The notes beneath the pieces were generated by a model, which saw only the letters and a program-made list of their open reading frames with translations, made no database searches and was not told where the DNA came from. The translations under genes were made by a program, and so were the position numbers. From positions 1 through 64,000 of the IMG/VR virus record IMGVR_UViG_2671180676_000004: DNA of 64,000 nt; one strand, written 5' to 3'. Shown piece by piece: positions 8,785-16,788 of this stretch. This stretch comes from a virus. Its lineage: Duplodnaviria; Heunggongvirae; Uroviricota; Caudoviricetes. How positions within the stretch are numbered: the first letter of the stretch is position 1; each line of letters begins with the position of its first letter.

Positions 8785-10023
8785 TTAATTACTGACAGTT
8801 TCAGGTTTCGGGAAACTGAACAGTAAATCACGGTAGTATTCGTATTGTTTCTGGCGCAACTCGATTTCACGCGGGAGACCTTCGGTGATGGAGTTGGTCA
8901 GGGTGTCGAATTTATCGAGCAGAGCAGATATTCGCTCTTGTTTCTGTTTATCAGGCAATGGCACTGGTAATGTTTTTATAATATCTGCATTCAAGTTACT
9001 GACCGACCCGCTATTGATTTTACTTTCCCAATAATTTTTCACCTTTTTTGATGAAAGATAGTGATACAGATAATCAGCATTTAATTTTTCACCAAAATTG
9101 CTGATTGATGCCCATCCATCATGGATAGCTCCGGTTATCCTTAAAATATATGGTCTGCCAAAGCTCATAGAGTTAGAAATGACGAAATCACCGGGGTTCA
9201 AGATTCGCGATTTTTGGGCACCCTCTGCAGTTATTTTTTGTAAGGTTTTGTCAATGTATTTAGAGCCGGGGATAGTATCTCCGATTTTAATCCATGGGAT
9301 ACCATTTCCTTGTTCAGTAAGATAATTAACAATTGGCCTGGGGGATGCCCCACGTTGTATTTTGGCTACTTCTCCCAATGCCTTCCACTCAACCTCACCC
9401 TCTTTAAAACTCAGCAACTGGTCGCGATAGTAGTTGTACTGTTTTTTACGCATGTTAAGCTCAGCGGTAAGCTCAGCGGTAAGTGCAGTAAACTTATCCA
9501 GAATCCGAACAATTTCAGACTGGATGGCAAGGGATTTTCCCGGGGCGCTGGGACAAGGGATGGGTATTTGATAGTTTAAAATTGCATCTTTACTGCCTCG
9601 AGGCATCTTTGCCCCTTTAGCGTGCTGCATACTGTAAGAAAAAAATGAATCCGACGATAATGCATAGTAGAGATATTCTGGACTAATAATTTTTTTACAG
9701 TCTGCTAAAATGCGTATAGCAAGGACATCACCACTGCACCCGCCATTATTCTCCGCCATCCAAACTTTCTTTAAATATGGGCGAATATTACCTAAAAGAA
9801 TATCACCTGGCTCATAGGCAGTTAAACGTGCCGTATTAGGCTGATAGGTGGCGTCAATGCGACCGCCTTTATCAGCAAGGAGATTATCAACGCCAACGAA
9901 TGAAGTGGCATCAAGTTTATCAGCATCAACTTTGGTTGTTGAATACCCGGCGATATCGCCCACTGCTTTCCACTCAACCTCAACCCCATCCAGCAATTTT
10001 TCCAGATAACTCAACTCGCTCAT
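8785..10023 (-). CDS. hsdS: Type I restriction-modification specificity subunit
   Basis: 412 aa with two target-recognition halves, each ending in a conserved coiled spacer (…[16 protein letters not shown] / …[16 protein letters not shown]); overlaps hsdM by 4 nt. Confidence 0.85.
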
Positions 10024-11582
10024 TTCTGCACCTCGCAGCCTTCAATTTCAGCCACAATCGCATCAATATCTTTACGCAACTGGTCGATTTTGCTGACCGT
10101 GGTTTTCAGCTCTGCATTCAACTCAGCGATATCGATAATTTCGCGAGTATCTTTCACTTCAACATAGCTGCTCACCGACAGGTTATAGTCATTAGCAACA
10201 ACAGTCTCAAACGCAACAGATTTCGCCAGATGAGCAACATCTTCCTTGCTGGCAAATACCTGCATAATTTTTTCTATATGGGCATCGGTCAGAATGTTGT
10301 TGTTAGTCTCTTTTTTGAACAGTTCGCTGGCATCAATAAACTGAACTTTGGTATCCGTTTTATGTTTAGACAGCACCAGAATATTGACGGCAATGGTGGT
10401 GCCAAAGAACAGGTTCGGTGCCAGTGAAATCACGGTTTCGACATAGTTATTGTCAACCAGATACTGACGGATTTTCTGCTCCGCGCCGCCACGGTAAAAA
10501 ATGCCCGGGAAGCAGACAATCGCAGCACGACCTTTGGCAGAAAGATAGTTCAGCGCATGTAATACAAACGCAAAGTCAGCTTTGGATTTGGGGGCCAGAA
10601 CGCCAGCCGGGGCAAAACGTTCATCGTTAATCAGCGTCGGGTCATCGCTGCCAATCCATTTCACCGAATACGGCGGGTTAGAAACGATGGCATCAAACGG
10701 TTTTTCATCTCTGAAGTGCGGCTCAGTCAGCGTATTGCCCAGCTTGATATCAAACTTGTCGTAGTTGATGTTGTGCAAAAACATGTTCATACGCGCCAGG
10801 TTATAGGTCGTATGGTTGATCTCCTGACCGAAAAAGCCTTCTTCGATGATGTGGTCATCGAACTGCTTTTTCGCCTGCAACAACAGCGAACCGGAACCTG
10901 CTGCCGGGTCGTAGATTTTGTTAACGTGGGTCTGGCCGTGCATTGCCAATTGTGCAATCAGCTTAGAGACGTGCTGCGGTGTAAAGAACTCGCCGCCTGA
11001 CTTACCAGCATTCGCGGCATAGTTAGAAATCAGGAACTCATAGGCATCGCCGAACAGGTCAATCTGATGTTCGTTGAAGTCACCAAGTTTTAACCCTTCA
11101 ACCCCTTTCAGAACCGCAGCCAGGCGGGCATTTTTATCTTTAACGGTGTTACCCAGGCGGTTACTGGTGGTATCGAAATCAGCAAACAAACCTTTGATGT
11201 CAGCTTCTGAAGGATAACCGTAAGCAGAACTTTCGATAGCAACGAAGATGCTGTTTAAATCTGCGTTCAGTCTGTCATTGGTATTTGCTTTCGCCGCTAC
11301 GTTGCAGAAAAGCTGACTGGGGTAGATGAAGTAGCCTTTAGTTTTGATGGCATCGTCTTTAATGTCATCAGTAATTACGCTGTCATCCAGTTTCGCATAA
11401 CAGATACTGTCATCACCGGCTTCAATATAGCTGGAAAAATTTTCGCTGATAAAACGGTAGAAAAGTGCGCCCAGAACGTATTGCTTAAAATCCCATCCAT
11501 CGACCGAACCCCTGACATCGTTAGCAATTTGCCAGATTTGACGATGAAGCTCTGCACGTTGTTGAATACTTGTCATTTTCAT
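10020..11582 (-). CDS. hsdM: Type I N6-adenine DNA methyltransferase subunit
   Basis: 520 aa; SAM motif [10 protein letters not shown] and catalytic NPPYS. Confidence 0.9.
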
Positions 11583-11706
11583 CCACTTATTTCAGGCTTA
11601 TGTAATTGGCGGTGATTCTACAGCAACTTGGATGCTTTAGCAGTTCGGACATTAGGCAACGAATGACCTAATTAGAGCTTTTTGGAAAAGCGGTATTGTC
11701 GGTGCG

Positions 11707-11931
11707 ATGATAGCTATGTTTGGGTGCGCGATGGTGCAATACAATGACGGTGAAAAGGTAAGCATCCAGTCTGATGGCTGGTATGGGCTGGATAGCCTGC
11801 AAAAAACCGCAGATAAAGCCTGTCAGCAATATGGAAAGTCTAAAGCCGTATATCAGCATAGCGCGAACGCTAATCCACATCTCGCGCCCGGCACGGGCGT
11901 TCAGAACACTATTTGGAAATGCGAACCATAA
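11707..11931 (+). CDS. Hypothetical small protein (74 aa)
   Basis: ORF only; no clear SD. Confidence 0.25.
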   Translation: MIAMFGCAMVQYNDGEKVSIQSDGWYGLDSLQKTADKACQQYGKSKAVYQHSANANPHLAPGTGVQNTIWKCEP

Positions 11932-12114
11932 CGCAGGTTGGCTTTTTACATCTTGGGCCGAATACTGATTCCGCGCTAAGTTGTTTGTGCGGAAGTGACA
12001 CTGTGGAGCTTAGAAATAGTAAATACTGGTGGGCAACAAATTGAGCCTTCACACGCTCACCAGCACACACAAAAAATGGTTAAACAGCAAGGGAATTAAT
12101 ATCTCATCGCGACA

Positions 12115-12252
12115 TTAAATAAGCCAGCGCACGCCTCTGTTTATCACTGACTTGAAAAACCATATCAGAACCACGATGAAGACAATCGCCAGCACTTGGC
12201 TAAGAACAGGCGCATTTAAAAATGCACTTAGAAACTGAAAAAATACAATCAT
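12115..12252 (-). CDS. Small hydrophobic peptide (45 aa), type I toxin-like
   Basis: Not in ORF track; minus-strand ATG at 12252-12250 with SD GAGGA; product MIVFFQFLSAFLNAPVLSQVLAIVFIVVLIWFFKSVINRGVRWLI. Confidence 0.35.
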   Translation of the reverse strand: MIVFFQFLSAFLNAPVLSQVLAIVFIVVLIWFFKSVINRGVRWLI

Positions 12253-12708
12253 CAGGGTAATCCTCGTCTAATGTAAAGCTGTGTGCTCTCACGTTGACGT
12301 AGAAACCCAACCTCTATATAGTTGGATTCGGTGAAAGAAAGTCGTTAACGTGAACTTACGGCACATGTTTTCGGTATAAAAATCAGGGAACTGTGAATTC
12401 CTTGATGTAGTTGGGGCCTGTAATGCAGGCCCTATCTATTAATGTCATGATTACATCTCAAATTTTCTCCTTATCATTATTATTTAATAAAATTCAATTA
12501 ATATAATATCCATTTCCTGTGTGTGCAAACACAGTATGAGGAAAATGGCCCCGTTGCAAGTGCATAACTTTGTGGATAACTCTGAAGGCGAATTTACATT
12601 TCGGCGCACCGCAAGCCAGATAAGCTGTGCGCAAAAAGCAATGGGGTGAGAAAAAAACTTTGAAGATATTGCGGCGACTAAATAATAGCCGTTATTCAAT
12701 TATTCTGG

Positions 12709-12972
12709 ATGGGATTTAATATGAACGAATGGAACATAGCAGCCAAAAGCCAGGAAGAAAGGAATAAAGTTAACGTTGACCTGGCTGCCAGGGGGGTTGC
12801 CTACAAAGAGCGATTGAACATACCCGTCATAGCGGAACAGGTAGCCCGTGAGCAACCTGAGAACCTGCGCACCTATTTCATGGAACGGCTACGGCACTAC
12901 CGGCAGTTAAGCCTCCTGCTGCCAAAAGGAAACGATCCGGTATATCAGAAAGAAGATATAGCCAAAAAATAA
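12709..12972 (+). CDS. Hypothetical protein (83-87 aa)
   Basis: ORF; alternative ATG at 12721; immediately upstream of the UmuD'-like gene. Confidence 0.4.
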
Positions 12973-13070
12973 CGCGCCACCAGGCGAGCGCAAAGCATCG
13001 CGCTATTGCACACTTCAAGCATCTTTAATGTATACTGTATGGATAAACAGTACTCTGAGGTGAAAACGCT

Positions 13071-13460
13071 ATGGGCTTCCCTTCTCCTGCGGCGGATTAT
13101 GCTGAGAGTCGTATTTCTCTTGATCAGCAGATAATTAGACATCCTTCAGCGACCTACTTCTTGAGGGCAGCTGATAGTCATCATCGTGAGGGAATATTAC
13201 AGGGTGCATTGCTGGTGGTCGATTCCTCACTTACCCCGGTTGATGGTTCTCTGCTTGTATGCGCTCTGGATGGGGAATATCGCGTAAAAAGATACCGGAA
13301 GTATCCACGTCAGCATCTGGAGGATTTGAGAACCGGTAAGAAGGAAGCATTGCCAAAGGATGACGATGGATGCACGGGCAGCAATGCCGTGTTTGGTGTG
13401 ATCACTCACATTATCAACGACGCAAGAAGTGGCGAGTTTGATGATTGTCCCGTGATGTAG
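13071..13460 (+). CDS. UmuD'-like S24-peptidase domain protein
   Basis: Begins MGFPSPAADY…HPSATYF, matching UmuD from its Cys-Gly autocleavage site onward; Ser and Lys positions kept (ADSH…VKRY); no umuC partner. Confidence 0.6.
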   Translation: MGFPSPAADYAESRISLDQQIIRHPSATYFLRAADSHHREGILQGALLVVDSSLTPVDGSLLVCALDGEYRVKRYRKYPRQHLEDLRTGKKEALPKDDDGCTGSNAVFGVITHIINDARSGEFDDCPVM

Positions 13461-13496: not shown

Positions 13497-14597
13497 TCAC
13501 ACTGCGCGGAATGCGATCTCGCCAGGTATTACTTCGCCTTGCCAATACATTTGGGCAGCAACGCGATCTGCGAGGTCACGATAAATAGCCGTAAATTCGC
13601 TATCTGGACGACTAATAACGGTTGGTGTTCCGTTATCCAGATCTTCACGAAGAGAGATATGAAGTGGCATTTGGCCTAACAACTGCGTGTTGTATTTCTC
13701 GGCCAGTTTCTGTGCGCCACCGGTGCCAAAAATTGGCTCGTGATGACCGCAGTTACTGCAAATATGCACACTCATGTTTTCGACGATACCCAGTACCGGC
13801 ACTTCGACTTTTTCGAACATCACAATGCCTTTCTTCGCATCGATCAGCGCGATGTCTTGCGGCGTAGTTACCACAACCGCACCAGTTACAGGAATGTTCT
13901 GCGCCAGCGTCAACTGAATATCACCAGTGCCCGGCGGCATATCGAGAACGAGATAGTCCAGATCAGGCCATAGAGTTTCCTGCAACATCTGCATCAGCGC
14001 CTTGCTGGCCATCGGTCCACGCCACACCATTGCATTGTCGTCGGTGACCAGATAACCAATAGAGTTGGTTGCCAGGCCATGAGACATGATAGGTGCCATG
14101 TGAGTACCGTCCGGTGAGGTTGGACGTTGGTTTTCCGCGCCCAGCATGGTTGGAATTGATGGACCATAGATATCGGCATCCAAAATACCAACTTTCGCAC
14201 CTTCAGCAGCCAACGCCAGTGCCAGGTTTACCGCCGTGGAGGATTTACCCACGCCGCCCTTGCCTGAGCTGACGGCGATAATGTTCTTAACGCCATTAAT
14301 GCCTGGTTGGTTTTTGACGCGCTTAAGCGTGGCAATGTTGTACGACAGCTTCCAGTCAATAGCCTTTGCGCCAGTGATACGGAGCAGATCACCACTACAT
14401 TGCTCTTTCAGGTCTTCAAAAGGCTTATTCCACACGAAAGGCATGATTAGTTCGACATGCAGTGTGTCATCCATCAACGCAACATGGTGTAACGCTTTAA
14501 GCGTAGTCAGGTTGTGTTTCAGGGTTGGGTGCTGAAAATTAGCCAGCGTACCGGCTACCATTGCTCTCAGGGCATCCGGCGATTTGGACTCGCTCAT
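13497..14597 (-). CDS. apbC: Fe-S cluster carrier ATPase Mrp/ApbC
   Basis: 366 aa; P-loop SSGKGGVGKSST; MinD/Mrp family; divergent from metG as in E. coli. Confidence 0.95.
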   Translation of the reverse strand: MSESKSPDALRAMVAGTLANFQHPTLKHNLTTLKALHHVALMDDTLHVELIMPFVWNKPFEDLKEQCSGDLLRITGAKAIDWKLSYNIATLKRVKNQPGINGVKNIIAVSSGKGGVGKSSTAVNLALALAAEGAKVGILDADIYGPSIPTMLGAENQRPTSPDGTHMAPIMSHGLATNSIGYLVTDDNAMVWRGPMASKALMQMLQETLWPDLDYLVLDMPPGTGDIQLTLAQNIPVTGAVVVTTPQDIALIDAKKGIVMFEKVEVPVLGIVENMSVHICSNCGHHEPIFGTGGAQKLAEKYNTQLLGQMPLHISLREDLDNGTPTVISRPDSEFTAIYRDLADRVAAQMYWQGEVIPGEIAFRAV

Positions 14598-14754
14598 CCC
14601 GTCTCCTTTATTTTAATTTGCGCAATTGTCGCCTTGTAGTGTACTCCAGCTACGACATTTAATCATTTATGAGAAATGCTGTTATCACATGGCAGACATA
14701 AGGCCATTTTGTTACTATCAAGCCCCTTTTCACTACAAAGAAGTAATGCCTACT

Positions 14755-16788
14755 ATGACCCAAGTCGCGAAGAAAATTCTGGTGACGTGCGCGCTGCCGT
14801 ACGCTAACGGCTCAATCCACCTCGGCCATATGCTGGAGCACATCCAGGCTGATGTCTGGGTTCGTTACCAGCGAATGCGCGGCCACGAGGTTAATTTCAT
14901 CTGTGCCGACGATGCCCACGGTACGCCGATCATGCTGAAAGCACAGCAGCTTGGTATCACACCGGAGCAGATGATTGGCGAAATGAGTCAGGAACACCAG
15001 ACTGATTTCGCAGGCTTTAACATCAGCTATGACAACTATCACTCGACGCACAGCGAAGAGAACCGTCAGTTGTCTGAGCTTATCTATACTCGCCTGAAAG
15101 AGAACGGTTTTATTAAAAACCGCACTATCTCTCAGTTGTACGACCCGGAAAAAGGCATGTTCCTGCCGGATCGTTTTGTAAAAGGCACCTGCCCGAAATG
15201 TAAAGCGCCAGATCAATACGGCGATAACTGTGAAGTCTGCGGCGCAACATATAGCCCGACTGAATTGATCGAGCCGAAATCGGTGGTTTCTGGCGCTACC
15301 CCGGTAATGCGTGATTCCGAACACTTCTTCTTTGATCTACCTTCTTTCAGCGAAATGTTGCAGGCATGGACCCGCAGCGGCGCGTTGCAGGAGCAGGTGG
15401 CGAACAAAATGCAGGAATGGTTTGAATCCGGCCTGCAACAGTGGGATATATCCCGCGATGCGCCTTACTTCGGTTTTGAAATTCCGAACGCGCCGGGCAA
15501 ATATTTCTACGTCTGGCTGGACGCGCCGATTGGCTACATGGGTTCCTTCAAGAATCTGTGCGACAAGCGCGGCGATACCACCAGCTTCGATGAATACTGG
15601 AAGAAAGACTCCACCGCCGAGCTGTACCACTTCATCGGTAAAGATATTGTTTACTTCCACAGCCTGTTCTGGCCTGCCATGCTGGAAGGCAGCAACTTCC
15701 GCAAGCCGACCAACCTGTTTGTTCATGGCTATGTGACGGTGAACGGCGCGAAGATGTCCAAGTCTCGCGGCACCTTTATTAAAGCCAGCACCTGGCTGAA
15801 TCATTTTGACGCTGACAGCCTGCGTTACTACTACACTGCGAAACTCTCTTCGCGTATTGATGATATCGATCTCAACCTGGAGGATTTCGTTCAGCGTGTG
15901 AATGCCGATATCGTTAACAAAGTGGTTAACCTGGCGTCCCGTAACGCTGGCTTTATCAATAAGCGTTTTGACGGTGTGCTGGCAGGCGAACTGGCTGACC
16001 CGCAACTGTATAAAACCTTCACTGATGCTGCTGAAGTGATTGGTGAAGCATGGGAAAGCCGCGAATTTGGTAAAGCTATCCGTGAAATCATGGCATTGGC
16101 TGACCTGGCTAACCGCTATGTCGATGAACAGGCTCCGTGGGTGGTGGCGAAGCAGGAAGGACGCGATGCCGATCTGCAGGCGATTTGCTCTATGGGCATT
16201 AACCTGTTCCGCGTGCTGATGACGTACCTGAAGCCGGTACTGCCGAAACTGACTGAACGTGCAGAAGCATTCCTGAATACAGAACTGACCTGGGATGGTA
16301 TCCAGCAACCGCTGCTGGGCCATAAAGTGAATCCGTTCAAGGCACTGTATAACCGCATCGATATGAAGCAGGTTGAAGCACTGGTGGAAGCATCCAAAGA
16401 AGAAGTGAAAGCCACAGCCGCACCGGTAACTGGCCCACTGGCTGACGACCCGATTCAGGAAACTATCACCTTTGACGACTTCGCCAAAGTTGACCTGCGC
16501 GTGGCGCTGATTGAAAACGCAGAGTTTGTAGAAGGTTCTGACAAACTGCTTCGCCTGACGCTGGATCTCGGTGGTGAAAAGCGTAATGTCTTCTCAGGCA
16601 TCCGTTCCGCTTATCCAGATCCACAGGCACTGATTGGTCGTCACACCATTATGGTGGCTAACCTGGCACCACGTAAAATGCGCTTCGGTATCTCTGAAGG
16701 CATGGTGATGGCTGCTGGCCCCGGCGGGAAAGATATCTTCCTGTTAAGCCCGGATGCTGGTGCTAAACCTGGCCACCAGGTTAAGTAA
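14755..16788 (+). CDS. metG: Methionyl-tRNA synthetase
   Basis: 677 aa from [11 protein letters not shown]; class I HIGH (HLGH) and KMSKS motifs; zinc knuckle CPKC…CEVCG; C-terminal tRNA-binding domain. Confidence 0.97.

What the first reader, a model, noticed from the sequence alone, without database searches (positions are those of the whole stretch)
12115..12252. Unannotated 45-aa hydrophobic peptide on the minus strand
A minus-strand ATG with a GAGGA Shine-Dalgarno sequence encodes a single-TM peptide with a basic C-terminus (…KSVINRGVRWLI), the architecture of type I toxins and small membrane regulators. It is below the size cutoff of the ORF track. A near-consensus sigma70 promoter (TTGACG-17-TATAGT, about 12294-12322) points the opposite way nearby and could drive an antisense or divergent transcript.
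Basis: seen in the sequence. Interest (0 to 1): 0.5.

Follow-up and report, generated by a model that had tools for sequence, protein, structure and literature searches.

The report
Conserved small membrane-peptide gene with antisense RNA
The 45-codon hydrophobic ORF is a real, conserved gene of phage-P1-type plasmids that the P1 reference annotation missed, and it faces a conserved structured RNA on the other strand in an arrangement like a type I toxin-antitoxin pair, although toxicity and expression have not been tested.

Summary
ORF 12115-12252 (-), its GAGGA Shine-Dalgarno and the TTGACG-17-TATAGT promoter (12294-12322, +) are all present. The window is a P1-like phage-plasmid, 100% identical to E. 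coli pUTAK-6-1. The ORF occurs in four diverged lineages, was intact in 54 of 55 full-length loci, and shows purifying selection (dN/dS 0.18-0.34 over codons 1-31, no indels there). RefSeq annotates it as "hypothetical protein" in some P1-type plasmids. The P1 reference instead annotates opposite-strand upfM and upfN, which are not conserved ORFs.

The promoter is invariant. It drives a ~115-nt three-hairpin RNA with covariation and a plus-strand-specific fold (z = -3.7). The last hairpin looks like a terminator.

A minus-strand stem spanning that promoter carries a compensatory change. No promoter-like site lies between the ORF and the RNA. Both points suggest a long 5'UTR antisense to the RNA.

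The peptide fits the type I toxin criteria but matches no known toxin family, and the RNA matches no Rfam family. Best reading: a new candidate type I toxin-antitoxin-like module (confidence about 0.42). Toxicity, transcripts and regulation were not tested.

The parts
12115..12252 (-). 45-aa small hydrophobic protein gene (helix, NAP kink, TM helix, polar/basic tail). It is the homolog of an unannotated ORF at P1 NC_005856 85992-86129 and of RefSeq WP_000123562.1.
   Evidence: intact in 54 of 55 full-length loci; dN/dS 0.18-0.34 over codons 1-31; no gap in 93 columns.
12261..12265 (-). Shine-Dalgarno GAGGA, 8 nt upstream of the ATG. The other lineages have AAGGA or GAGGA at the same place.
12294..12322 (+). 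Sigma-70 promoter TTGACG-17-TATAGT. Both hexamers are invariant in all lineages. It is P1's predicted 'PupfN'.
12329..12447 (+). Predicted ~115-nt structured RNA: SL1 12342-12374, SL2 12381-12407, SL3 12409-12437, then a U-rich tail (terminator-like). It would be antisense to the inferred 5'UTR of the small ORF. The 5' and 3' ends are predicted, not mapped.
   Evidence: -38.3 kcal/mol, z = -3.69; opposite strand z = -2.0; covariation; 8 G.U pairs; SL3 flagged terminator-like in L009; no Rfam family.
12287..12355 (-). Structured part of the inferred 5'UTR of the small-ORF mRNA. A long-range stem (12343-12355 with 12287-12299) encloses a hairpin (12303-12329) that overlies the plus-strand promoter.
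   Evidence: inverted repeat I3; one compensatory A-U to U-A pair and two G-C to G.U changes in L069; stem present in the MFE fold of 4 of 5 lineages.
12531..12559 (-). Candidate promoter of the small-ORF mRNA: TTGCAA-17-TACTGT. It is weak (7 of 12) but positionally conserved in all lineages. A window-specific alternative is TTTGCA-18-TATATT at 12529..12500.
   Evidence: This is inference only; no transcription start site data exist.
12559..12579 (-). Two tandem DnaA boxes (perfect TTATCCACA at 12571-12579; 8 of 9 at 12559-12567) abutting the -35 of the candidate minus-strand promoter. They may instead serve upfO/hot.
   Evidence: the P1 annotation notes two DnaA boxes; conserved.

Best explanation
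The locus is a compact two-strand module carried by P1-family phage-plasmids. The minus strand encodes a 45-aa membrane peptide. It is probably translated from an mRNA with a long (~250-270 nt), structured 5'UTR that starts at a weak promoter near 12524. The plus strand carries a strong, invariant sigma-70 promoter inside that 5'UTR region. This promoter makes a ~115-nt three-hairpin RNA that is fully complementary to the middle of the 5'UTR. By analogy with hok/sok and ldr/rdl, the abundant antisense RNA would keep peptide synthesis off. It could do this by forming a duplex that triggers mRNA cleavage or decay, by interference between the convergent promoters, or both. When RNA levels fall, the peptide would insert in the inner membrane and harm or arrest the cell. 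That would help plasmid-prophage maintenance or abortive defence. Shown here: the ORF is conserved and under purifying selection; the promoter is conserved; both strands have strand-specific RNA structure with covariation. Inferred: the transcript ends, the overlap, repression by the RNA, and toxicity.
For: Coding: the same ORF is present in four lineages that differ by 20-25% in DNA, with start, frame and SD retained. It was intact in 54 of 55 full-length loci. A permutation test gave P(ORF intact and replacements at least as conservative as observed) = 0.03, 0.007 and 0.0008 for three lineage pairs. dN/dS is 0.18-0.34 over codons 1-31 at dS 0.5-1.0, and there are no gaps in those 93 columns while both flanks have indels. 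Toxin-like features per PMC2887945: under 70 aa, a TM helix, a polar/aromatic C-terminal tail, and 457-469 nt to the upstream gene hot. RNA: both promoter hexamers are invariant. The plus strand folds at -38.3 kcal/mol, z = -3.69, against z = -2.0 for the complement. 96.8% of cells pair, against 33-52% when partners are slid, and three pairs changed on both sides, which only 2 of 500 shuffles reach. SL3 scores as terminator-like in L009. Overlap: a minus-strand stem has one arm upstream of the plus-strand start site, so only a minus-strand transcript can form it, and it keeps pairing through one compensatory and two G.U-type changes. No sigma-70-like site lies on the minus strand between 12248 and 12447 in any lineage. 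Context: the module sits in an accessory region about 1 kb from phd/doc in P1 and occurs only on P1-like plasmids, in 216 of 5426 E. coli genomes.
Against: There are no expression data for either strand and no toxicity data, and no paper on this locus was found. The peptide matches no known toxin family in Pfam, NCBIfam, PHROGs or PADLOC. Predicted SD accessibility is low (about 0.2-0.3) and does not change when the antisense target is occupied, so the simple RBS-occlusion mechanism is not supported. Covariation rests on few independent events in four lineages, and SL1 has none. The stem spanning the promoter could instead be a protein-binding palindrome. The candidate minus-strand promoter is weak. 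SL3's U-tract is poor in the window and in P1, so the plus RNA may read through as a leader for upfO/hot. The C-terminal tail is replaced in lineage L069. There is no tandem duplication.
Confidence: 0.42

Rival explanations
1. The ORF is a real small membrane protein, but it is not a toxin. It could be an accessory or regulatory peptide of the phage-plasmid, for example a modulator of a host membrane protein, or a factor in superinfection exclusion or lysis timing. The plus-strand RNA would mainly be the 5' leader or attenuator of the upfO-hot transcription unit (DnaA-box region), so its antisense relation to the ORF would be incidental or only a mild regulator.
For: The coding evidence is the same as for the main explanation. 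The region is non-essential for P1 lytic growth. SL3 has a weak U-tract in the window and in P1, and the tool did not flag it there, so read-through towards upfO/hot is plausible. The upfO-like frame and the DnaA boxes downstream are conserved. Antisense occupancy does not change predicted SD accessibility.
Against: P7 and E. albertii-type elements keep the promoter, the RNA and the small ORF although hot is missing, so the RNA is not tied to hot. The RNA block is more conserved than the sequence between it and upfO: 71% invariant columns against 24%, which fits a discrete functional RNA better than a generic leader. The RNA lies opposite the ORF's inferred 5'UTR, and there is minus-strand structural evidence for overlap.
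Confidence: 0.33
2. The ORF is not translated. It is a chance open frame, and its conservation reflects RNA or DNA elements such as the 3' part of a regulatory minus-strand RNA, or promoter and operator sequences.
For: The whole-ORF dN/dS of 0.41-0.45 is only modest. The C-terminal third is poorly conserved and tolerates a 20-nt deletion, IS1 insertions and frameshifts. Part of the ORF (the codons for SAFLNAP) is conserved even at synonymous sites and can form a hairpin. There is no proteomic or ribosome-profiling evidence.
Against: Start codon, SD, frame and about 31 N-terminal codons are kept across four lineages, with no indels there while both flanks have indels. Replacements are almost all conservative hydrophobic swaps, with dN/dS 0.18-0.34 at dS up to about 1, and permutation P values go down to 0.0008. 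It is the only one of 198 short ATG-ORFs in the window with both an SD motif and a TM-grade hydrophobic stretch. The in-ORF hairpin is not maintained in L009 (read directly from alignment A2). PGAP independently calls the gene.
Confidence: 0.12
3. The P1 reference annotation is right. The functional genes here are the plus-strand upfM and upfN, driven by PupfM and PupfN, and the minus-strand ORF is merely their shadow on the opposite strand.
For: upfM and upfN are annotated in NC_005856 and in P7. The strong promoter does point in the plus direction.
Against: upfM is cut to 12 aa in the window, has no start in L009 and has a different sequence in L069. upfN is broken by frameshifting indels in the window, L009 and L069. 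The predicted P1upfM promoter is not present in the window. The block under 'upfN' is nearly invariant in DNA, including third codon positions, and folds as an RNA with compensatory changes.
Confidence: 0.03

Closest known systems
hok/sok (and relatives pnd, srnB) type I toxin-antitoxin systems of plasmids
   Same: Both are plasmid-borne. Both have a small (about 50 aa) hydrophobic membrane peptide, a toxin mRNA with a long structured leader made from a weak promoter, and a short structured antisense RNA made from a strong promoter inside the leader region on the opposite strand. Both would plausibly serve plasmid maintenance. These properties of hok/sok are from general knowledge of the system.
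   Different: There is no sequence similarity: the Pfam Hok/Gef profile gives no hit, while the Hok control scored 1e-21. No overlapping leader ORF (mok-like) coupled to the toxin was found, and the upstream minus-strand mini-ORFs are not conserved or lie about 190 nt away. The predicted antisense RNA is about twice as long as Sok and lies 75-195 nt upstream of the start codon, not over an RBS. A hok-like 5'-3' fold-back is not conserved (and reading of the alignment).
ldr/rdl type I toxin-antitoxin system of E. coli
   Same: In both, the antisense RNA lies opposite the 5'UTR well upstream of the toxin ORF. The peptide architectures look alike: an N-terminal segment, an 'AP' helix break, a TM helix, Trp, and a basic tail (LdrD: ...DLAAPILAGIITAAIVSWWRNRK).
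   Different: Homology was tested and not found: hhalign probability 1.1%, and no Pfam Ldr hit while the LdrD control scored 1.7e-24. ldr loci are chromosomal and tandemly duplicated. This module is single-copy and only on P1-like plasmids.
Phage P1 reference annotation upfM / upfN / PupfN (NC_005856)
   Same: Same DNA. P1's predicted promoter PupfN is the TTGACG-17-TATAGT promoter.
   Different: P1 annotates plus-strand ORFs upfM (37 aa) and upfN (65 aa). Neither is conserved: upfM is 12 aa in the window and absent in L009, and upfN is broken by frameshifts. The minus-strand 45-aa ORF at P1 85992-86129 is conserved but not annotated there.
RefSeq WP_000123562.1 'hypothetical protein' of P1-type plasmids
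   Same: Orthologous 45-aa ORF, 60% identical, same position and strand.
   Different: It has no name, no function and no associated RNA annotated. The window allele and the P7-type allele are mostly left uncalled.

Membership tests
Type I toxin-antitoxin system (generic; criteria of Fozo et al. 2010, PMC2887945) | Toxin under 70 aa with a predicted transmembrane region | tested here: met
   45 aa; best 19-aa hydropathy window 2.59; AF2 model has helix 16-44, pLDDT 85.
Type I toxin-antitoxin system (generic; criteria of Fozo et al. 2010, PMC2887945) | [quoted passage not shown] | tested here: met
   The tail is KSVINRGVRWLI in the window, RSVKNGIMHWLT in P1 and KSVRNGGVRWLI in L009. In L069 it is replaced by NALSYLIPR, which is still polar/aromatic but has only one basic residue.
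Type I toxin-antitoxin system (generic; criteria of Fozo et al. 2010, PMC2887945) | Locus set apart from flanking genes (at least 400 nt upstream and 250 nt downstream) | tested here: inconclusive
   Upstream: 457-469 nt to hot, which meets the criterion. Downstream: 533 nt to hsdM, but only 184 nt to a conserved unannotated 74-aa ORF, and in P1 only 75 nt to pmgV.
Type I toxin-antitoxin system (generic; criteria of Fozo et al. 2010, PMC2887945) | A structured antisense sRNA complementary to the toxin mRNA | tested here: inconclusive
   The promoter is invariant and the plus-strand RNA is structured and covarying. Overlap with the ORF's mRNA is inferred from a minus-strand stem spanning the promoter and from the lack of a nearer promoter. 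Neither transcript has been observed.
Type I toxin-antitoxin system (generic; criteria of Fozo et al. 2010, PMC2887945) | Overproduction of the peptide is toxic, and the toxicity is repressed by the sRNA | not testable with these tools
   This needs an induction experiment. No literature on this ORF was found.
Type I toxin-antitoxin system (generic; criteria of Fozo et al. 2010, PMC2887945) | Tandem duplication of the locus (frequent in these systems but not obligatory) | tested here: not met
   There is a single copy per element: a median of one place per genome and no repeat family in the region.
Hok/Gef family (Pfam PF01848) | Sequence match to the family profile | tested here: not met
   No Pfam hit at E <= 1 for three alleles. 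The Hok control sequence scored 1.2e-21 in the same search.
Ldr family (Pfam PF13940) | Sequence match to the family profile | tested here: not met
   No Pfam hit. hhalign of the peptide alignment against LdrD gave probability 1.1% over 9 columns. The LdrD control scored 1.7e-24.
Any Rfam RNA family (Sok, Rdl, IstR and others) | Covariance-model match | tested here: not met
   cmscan of 11600-13100 at E <= 10 gave only a chance MicX hit (15.7 bits against a gathering score of 75), and it lay elsewhere in the region.
P1-family small ORF (orthologs of WP_000123562.1) | Orthologous position (between pmgV or its replacement and hot), orthologous strand, and at least 58% peptide identity | tested here: met

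The most novel reading that the evidence does not exclude
Phage P1, a classic model studied for about 70 years, and its large family of phage-plasmids carry a previously unrecognised type I toxin-antitoxin family. It would consist of a 45-aa helix-kink-helix membrane toxin and a ~115-nt three-hairpin antisense RNA, arranged as convergent overlapping promoters. The toxin promoter would be abutted by DnaA boxes, so toxin expression would be coupled to replication status. A distant 33-aa relative (AFLxAPxLSQ...IW...K) occurs on IncFII resistance plasmids of Klebsiella and Enterobacter, which would make this a broader plasmid-borne family.
Probability: 0.2. Interest if true: 0.7.

Novelty: new member of a known kind. 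Interest (0 to 1): 0.55.

Why it matters
P1-like phage-plasmids are widespread carriers of resistance genes; the module is present in about 4% of complete E. coli genomes here. P1 itself is a standard genetic tool.

If this is a type I toxin-antitoxin module, it would be a second addiction or defence system next to phd/doc. It would affect plasmid-curing and engineering strategies.

The P1 reference annotation would also need correcting. upfM and upfN appear to be mis-called over a minus-strand gene and a non-coding RNA.

Even if the peptide is not toxic, this is a well-supported conserved small membrane protein paired with a structured RNA, and it can be tested easily in a tractable system.

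Tried and rejected
- **Known protein families:** Pfam, NCBIfam, PHROGs and PADLOC scans of three or four alleles gave only sub-threshold noise.
- **Ldr resemblance (recalled 'AAP' motif, Trp, basic tail):** rejected as homology by hhalign, probability 1%.
- **Rfam:** nothing relevant.
- **Exhaustive HMM search of 1.84 billion representatives:** it returned only five hits, all disrupted or read-through variants of the same family, so no remote relatives were found this way.
- **Genome-contig scan with the 19-mer promoter core:** it gave two hits in unrelated taxa (Clostridia and Dysgonomonadaceae MAGs), about the number expected by chance.
- **Trans base-pairing between the plus RNA and the ORF's start region:** only a 7-nt match (repeat D2). 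By my own estimate about 1.7 such matches are expected by chance, and it is only partly conserved. Rejected as evidence.
- **hok-like 5'-3' fold-back pairing (inverted repeat I1, 74% complementary):** by eye it is not conserved in P1, so I did not pursue it.
- **Small ORFs inside the plus RNA or the 5'UTR:** P1 upfN, an ATG in the SL3 loop, and the minus-strand 'MTLIDR...' 20-aa ORF all lose their start or frame in at least one lineage.
- **SD-occlusion model:** no consistent effect in silico.
- **C1 operator near the locus:** none found.
- **LexA box near the ORF:** none. The only box nearby is the known humD box.
- **Literature:** searches for upfM, P1 transcriptomes, type I toxins in phage-plasmids and the peptide sequence itself found nothing on this ORF or RNA. 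The P1 genome paper PMC523184 is not held.

Full report
**1. What is in the sequence**

Window 12115-12252 (minus strand) holds an ATG-initiated 45-codon ORF encoding MIVFFQFLSAFLNAPVLSQVLAIVFIVVLIWFFKSVINRGVRWLI. GAGGA lies at 12265-12261, 8 nt upstream of the ATG. A sigma-70-like site, TTGACG-17-TATAGT, lies at 12294-12322 on the plus strand. It matches 10 of 12 consensus positions and is the best site in the region.

Among 198 ATG-ORFs of 30-60 aa in the whole window, this is the only one that has both an SD motif and a 19-residue hydropathy window of at least 2.5. It also has the highest mean hydropathy among the 15 ORFs listed with the most hydrophobic 19-residue window. AlphaFold2 predicts helix 2-12, a break at N13-A14-P15 and helix 16-44, with mean pLDDT 85.

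**2. Genomic context**

The region is 100% identical to E. coli plasmid pUTAK-6-1 (NZ_CP157149), a 111-kb P1-like phage-plasmid. The gene order is:
- hsdR-hsdS-hsdM on the minus strand, ending at 11582
- a ~1.1-kb stretch that RefSeq leaves empty
- hot (DNA polymerase III theta homolog, 12721-12972, plus strand)
- humD (13071-13460), with a perfect LexA box at 13033-13052
- apbC and metG

Homology to phage P1 starts at about 12058. In the P1 reference (NC_005856) the equivalent stretch is annotated with plus-strand genes upfM, upfN and upfO and the predicted promoters P1upfM, P2upfM and PupfN.

**3. The ORF is a conserved coding gene**

P1 carries a 45-codon minus-strand ORF at the orthologous place (record 85992-86129): MTAFFQFLSAFLDAPVISQILAIILIIVLILLLRSVKNGIMHWLT. 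It is not annotated in the P1 reference.

I recovered four lineages:
- the window type
- the P1/P7 type (58-60% amino-acid identity)
- the P0002 type (78% identity; loci L009-L012)
- a divergent type next to an H-NS gene (L069-L072), which gene callers read through as a 106-aa protein, P0007

The ORF was intact in 54 of 55 full-length loci drawn from IMG/VR, plasmid and phage collections. The one exception is an IS1 insertion. Start codon, frame and SD (GAGGA or AAGGA) are retained everywhere.

Selection on the ORF:

| Measure | Result |
|---|---|
| Whole-ORF dN/dS (window against P1 and P7) | 0.41-0.45 |
| dN/dS over codons 1-31, shared by all lineages | 0.18-0.34 for deeply diverged pairs (dS 0.5-1.0) |
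| Gap columns in those 93 alignment columns | 0, while both flanks and the C-terminal third have indels |
| P(ORF intact and BLOSUM score at least as high as observed) when the observed substitutions are re-placed at random | 0.03, 0.007 and 0.0008 for three lineage pairs |

Replacements are almost all V/I/L/F or K/R swaps. PGAP independently calls the P1-type allele 'hypothetical protein' WP_000123562.1 in many plasmids. I conclude that the ORF is a real gene, with probability about 0.85.

The C-terminal tail is less constrained than the rest. Lineage L069 has a 20-nt deletion that gives a 42-aa product ending in NALSYLIPR. Several database variants have IS1 insertions or frameshifts after residue 30-37.

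**4. P1's upfM and upfN are probably mis-calls**

upfM is 37 aa in P1 and P7, is cut to 12 aa in the window, and has no start in L009. upfN (65 aa in P1) is broken by frameshifting indels in the window, L009 and L069. Only the upfO-like frame stays open in all lineages. It overlaps two DnaA boxes.

**5. The plus-strand promoter drives a structured, conserved RNA**

Both hexamers of TTGACG-17-TATAGT are invariant in all lineages. The ~160 nt from 12289 to 12447 are the best-conserved block of the region: 71% of columns are invariant across five sequences. The comparable figures are 66% for the ORF's N-terminal part and 24% for the stretch beyond 12481.

The predicted transcript (12329 to about 12447) folds into three stem-loops at -38.3 kcal/mol with z = -3.69. 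Its complement folds at -24.5 kcal/mol with z = -2.0. Eight G.U pairs make the fold specific to the plus strand.

On a covariance-model alignment of nine distinct sequences, 96.8% of cells form pairs, against 33-52% when partners are slid. Three pairs changed on both sides, which only 2 of 500 shuffles reach. The covariation score exceeds all 500 shuffles. Support by stem-loop:
- SL3 (12409-12437) is the best supported, with two compensatory pairs and four one-sided G.U-type changes.
- SL2 has one compensatory pair.
- SL1 has none, and one pair is broken in L069.

SL3 is followed by UAUCUAUU in the window and UAUCUUUU in L009, and the scan flags it as terminator-like in L009. No Rfam family matches.

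**6. Evidence that the two transcripts overlap**

No sigma-70-like site exists on the minus strand between 12248 and 12447 in any lineage. The sequence just upstream of the SD (CTTTACATT on the minus strand) is invariant. The mRNA must therefore start further upstream, beyond the plus-strand start site.

A positionally conserved but weak candidate promoter, TTGCAA-17-TA(C/T)TGT, lies at 12559-12531. The window also has TTTGCA-18-TATATT at 12529-12500.

Independent support comes from a stem whose arms lie at 12343-12355 and 12287-12299. Its second arm is upstream of the plus-strand start site, so only a minus-strand transcript can form it. In L069 it keeps pairing through one compensatory A-U to U-A change and two G-C to G.U changes that are valid only on the minus strand. 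It also appears in the minimum-energy fold of the predicted mRNA in four of five lineages.

The caveats are that this is essentially one lineage's worth of events, and that an inverted repeat flanking a promoter could also be a protein-binding site.

**7. Mechanism**

The arrangement has three parts: a weakly promoted mRNA with a long structured leader, a small hydrophobic ORF, and a strongly promoted, structured ~115-nt RNA antisense to the leader. [quoted passage not shown]

I tested the simplest mechanism in silico. The SD is predicted to be mostly paired (P(unpaired) 0.2-0.3) in all five lineages. Blocking the antisense target region does not change this consistently. If the RNA represses the ORF, duplex-dependent cleavage or decay, or convergent-promoter interference, is more likely than RBS occlusion.

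Two tandem DnaA boxes lie next to the candidate minus-strand promoter. They could link expression to replication status, but they may equally serve hot.

**8. Comparison with known families**

By sequence the peptide belongs to no described family:
- no Pfam, NCBIfam, PHROGs or PADLOC hit
- Hok and LdrD control sequences scored 1e-21 and 1e-24 in the same Pfam search
- hhalign against LdrD gave probability 1%
- an exhaustive HMM search of 1.84 billion representatives returned only variants of the same family

The module is confined to P1-like plasmids. It occurs in 216 of 5426 complete E. coli genomes, and 218 of 219 places are on plasmids.

One possible distant relative is an unannotated 33-aa ORF, MVLLLDAFLSAPLLSQCAATVFLLLLIWLKKME, which has its own AAGGA SD. 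It is found on 22 IncFII plasmids of Klebsiella, Enterobacter and Citrobacter, and 16 of 28 aligned residues are identical to our peptide. It is identical in all 22 records, so coding constraint cannot be tested there. The plus-strand RNA model finds nothing at that locus.

**9. Verdict**

The gene is real, and the opposite-strand promoter drives a conserved structured RNA that is probably antisense to the gene's leader.
- Toxicity and regulation remain untested.
- The most likely classification is a new family-level member of the type I toxin-antitoxin kind (confidence about 0.42).
- The main rival is a non-toxic small membrane protein whose antisense RNA is mainly a leader or regulator for upfO/hot (about 0.33).
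- Interest is moderate (0.55). This is a candidate new module in a classic model phage and in clinically relevant phage-plasmids, together with a correction to the P1 reference annotation. It rests on computation only, and the ORF is already called 'hypothetical protein' in part of RefSeq.

Noticed in passing
window 12222-12260 (+) and 12350-12506 (+); P1 L002 1671-1784 and 1800-1997: The P1 reference genes upfM and upfN are not conserved as ORFs. upfM is 12 aa in the window and absent in L009, and upfN is frameshifted. They overlie the conserved minus-strand ORF and the structured plus-strand RNA, so they are probably annotation errors.
   Followed up: yes
window 12521-12649 (+), with DnaA boxes at 12559-12567 and 12571-12579: An upfO-like frame stays open in all five lineages with a conserved core (LLQVHNxVDNSG). 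It overlaps the window's only perfect DnaA box plus a second 8-of-9 box. It is unclear whether the conservation is coding, DnaA binding, or both.
   Followed up: partly
window 11707-11931 (+): A 74-aa ORF (MIAMFGCAMVQYNDGEK...) is unannotated in pUTAK-6-1, yet tblastn finds it in 301 plasmid records from Escherichia, Klebsiella, Salmonella and others at 64-100% identity. It is probably a real gene that is often missed.
   Followed up: partly
window 13497-16788: The chromosomal housekeeping genes apbC (mrp) and metG (methionyl-tRNA synthetase) sit on this P1-like plasmid directly after humD, where P1 has phd/doc. This is unusual cargo for a phage-plasmid.
   Followed up: no
window 13033-13052: A perfect LexA box (TACTGTATGGATAAACAGTA) lies upstream of humD, as in P1. 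The LexA-regulated lxr gene that lies between hot and humD in P1 and L009 is absent from the window.
   Followed up: partly
L068 2492-2593 (K. pneumoniae pNDM4-191773, IncFII) and 21 other plasmids: An unannotated 33-aa hydrophobic ORF with an AAGGA SD shares the AFLxAPxLSQ...IW...K motif with the P1-family peptide (16 of 28 residues identical). It is identical in all 22 records. It may be a distant relative on resistance plasmids.
   Followed up: partly
L007 485-1313; proteins P0003-P0006: IS1 has inserted into the C-terminal codons of the small ORF in two different alleles at different positions. Further variants carry frameshifts or insertions after residue 30-37. This could reflect counter-selection of an active peptide, an IS1 hotspot, or detection bias.
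   Followed up: partly
window 12451-12472 (-): On the minus strand a strong SD (AAGGAG) is followed by ATG-TAA. In P1 this is a 3-codon ORF and in L009 it is GTG-TAA. The SD and start codon are kept in all lineages. This could be a start-stop or mini-ORF in the inferred 5'UTR, lying at the 3' edge of the antisense RNA.
   Followed up: partly
window 8785-11582 and upstream: A type I restriction-modification system (hsdR/S/M) occupies the position where P1 has pmgT-pmgV. The P1 annotation notes that sequences flanking this region match DNA next to the hsd loci of plasmids (EcoDXXI, R124), so this may be a recombination hot spot for hsd cassettes.
   Followed up: no
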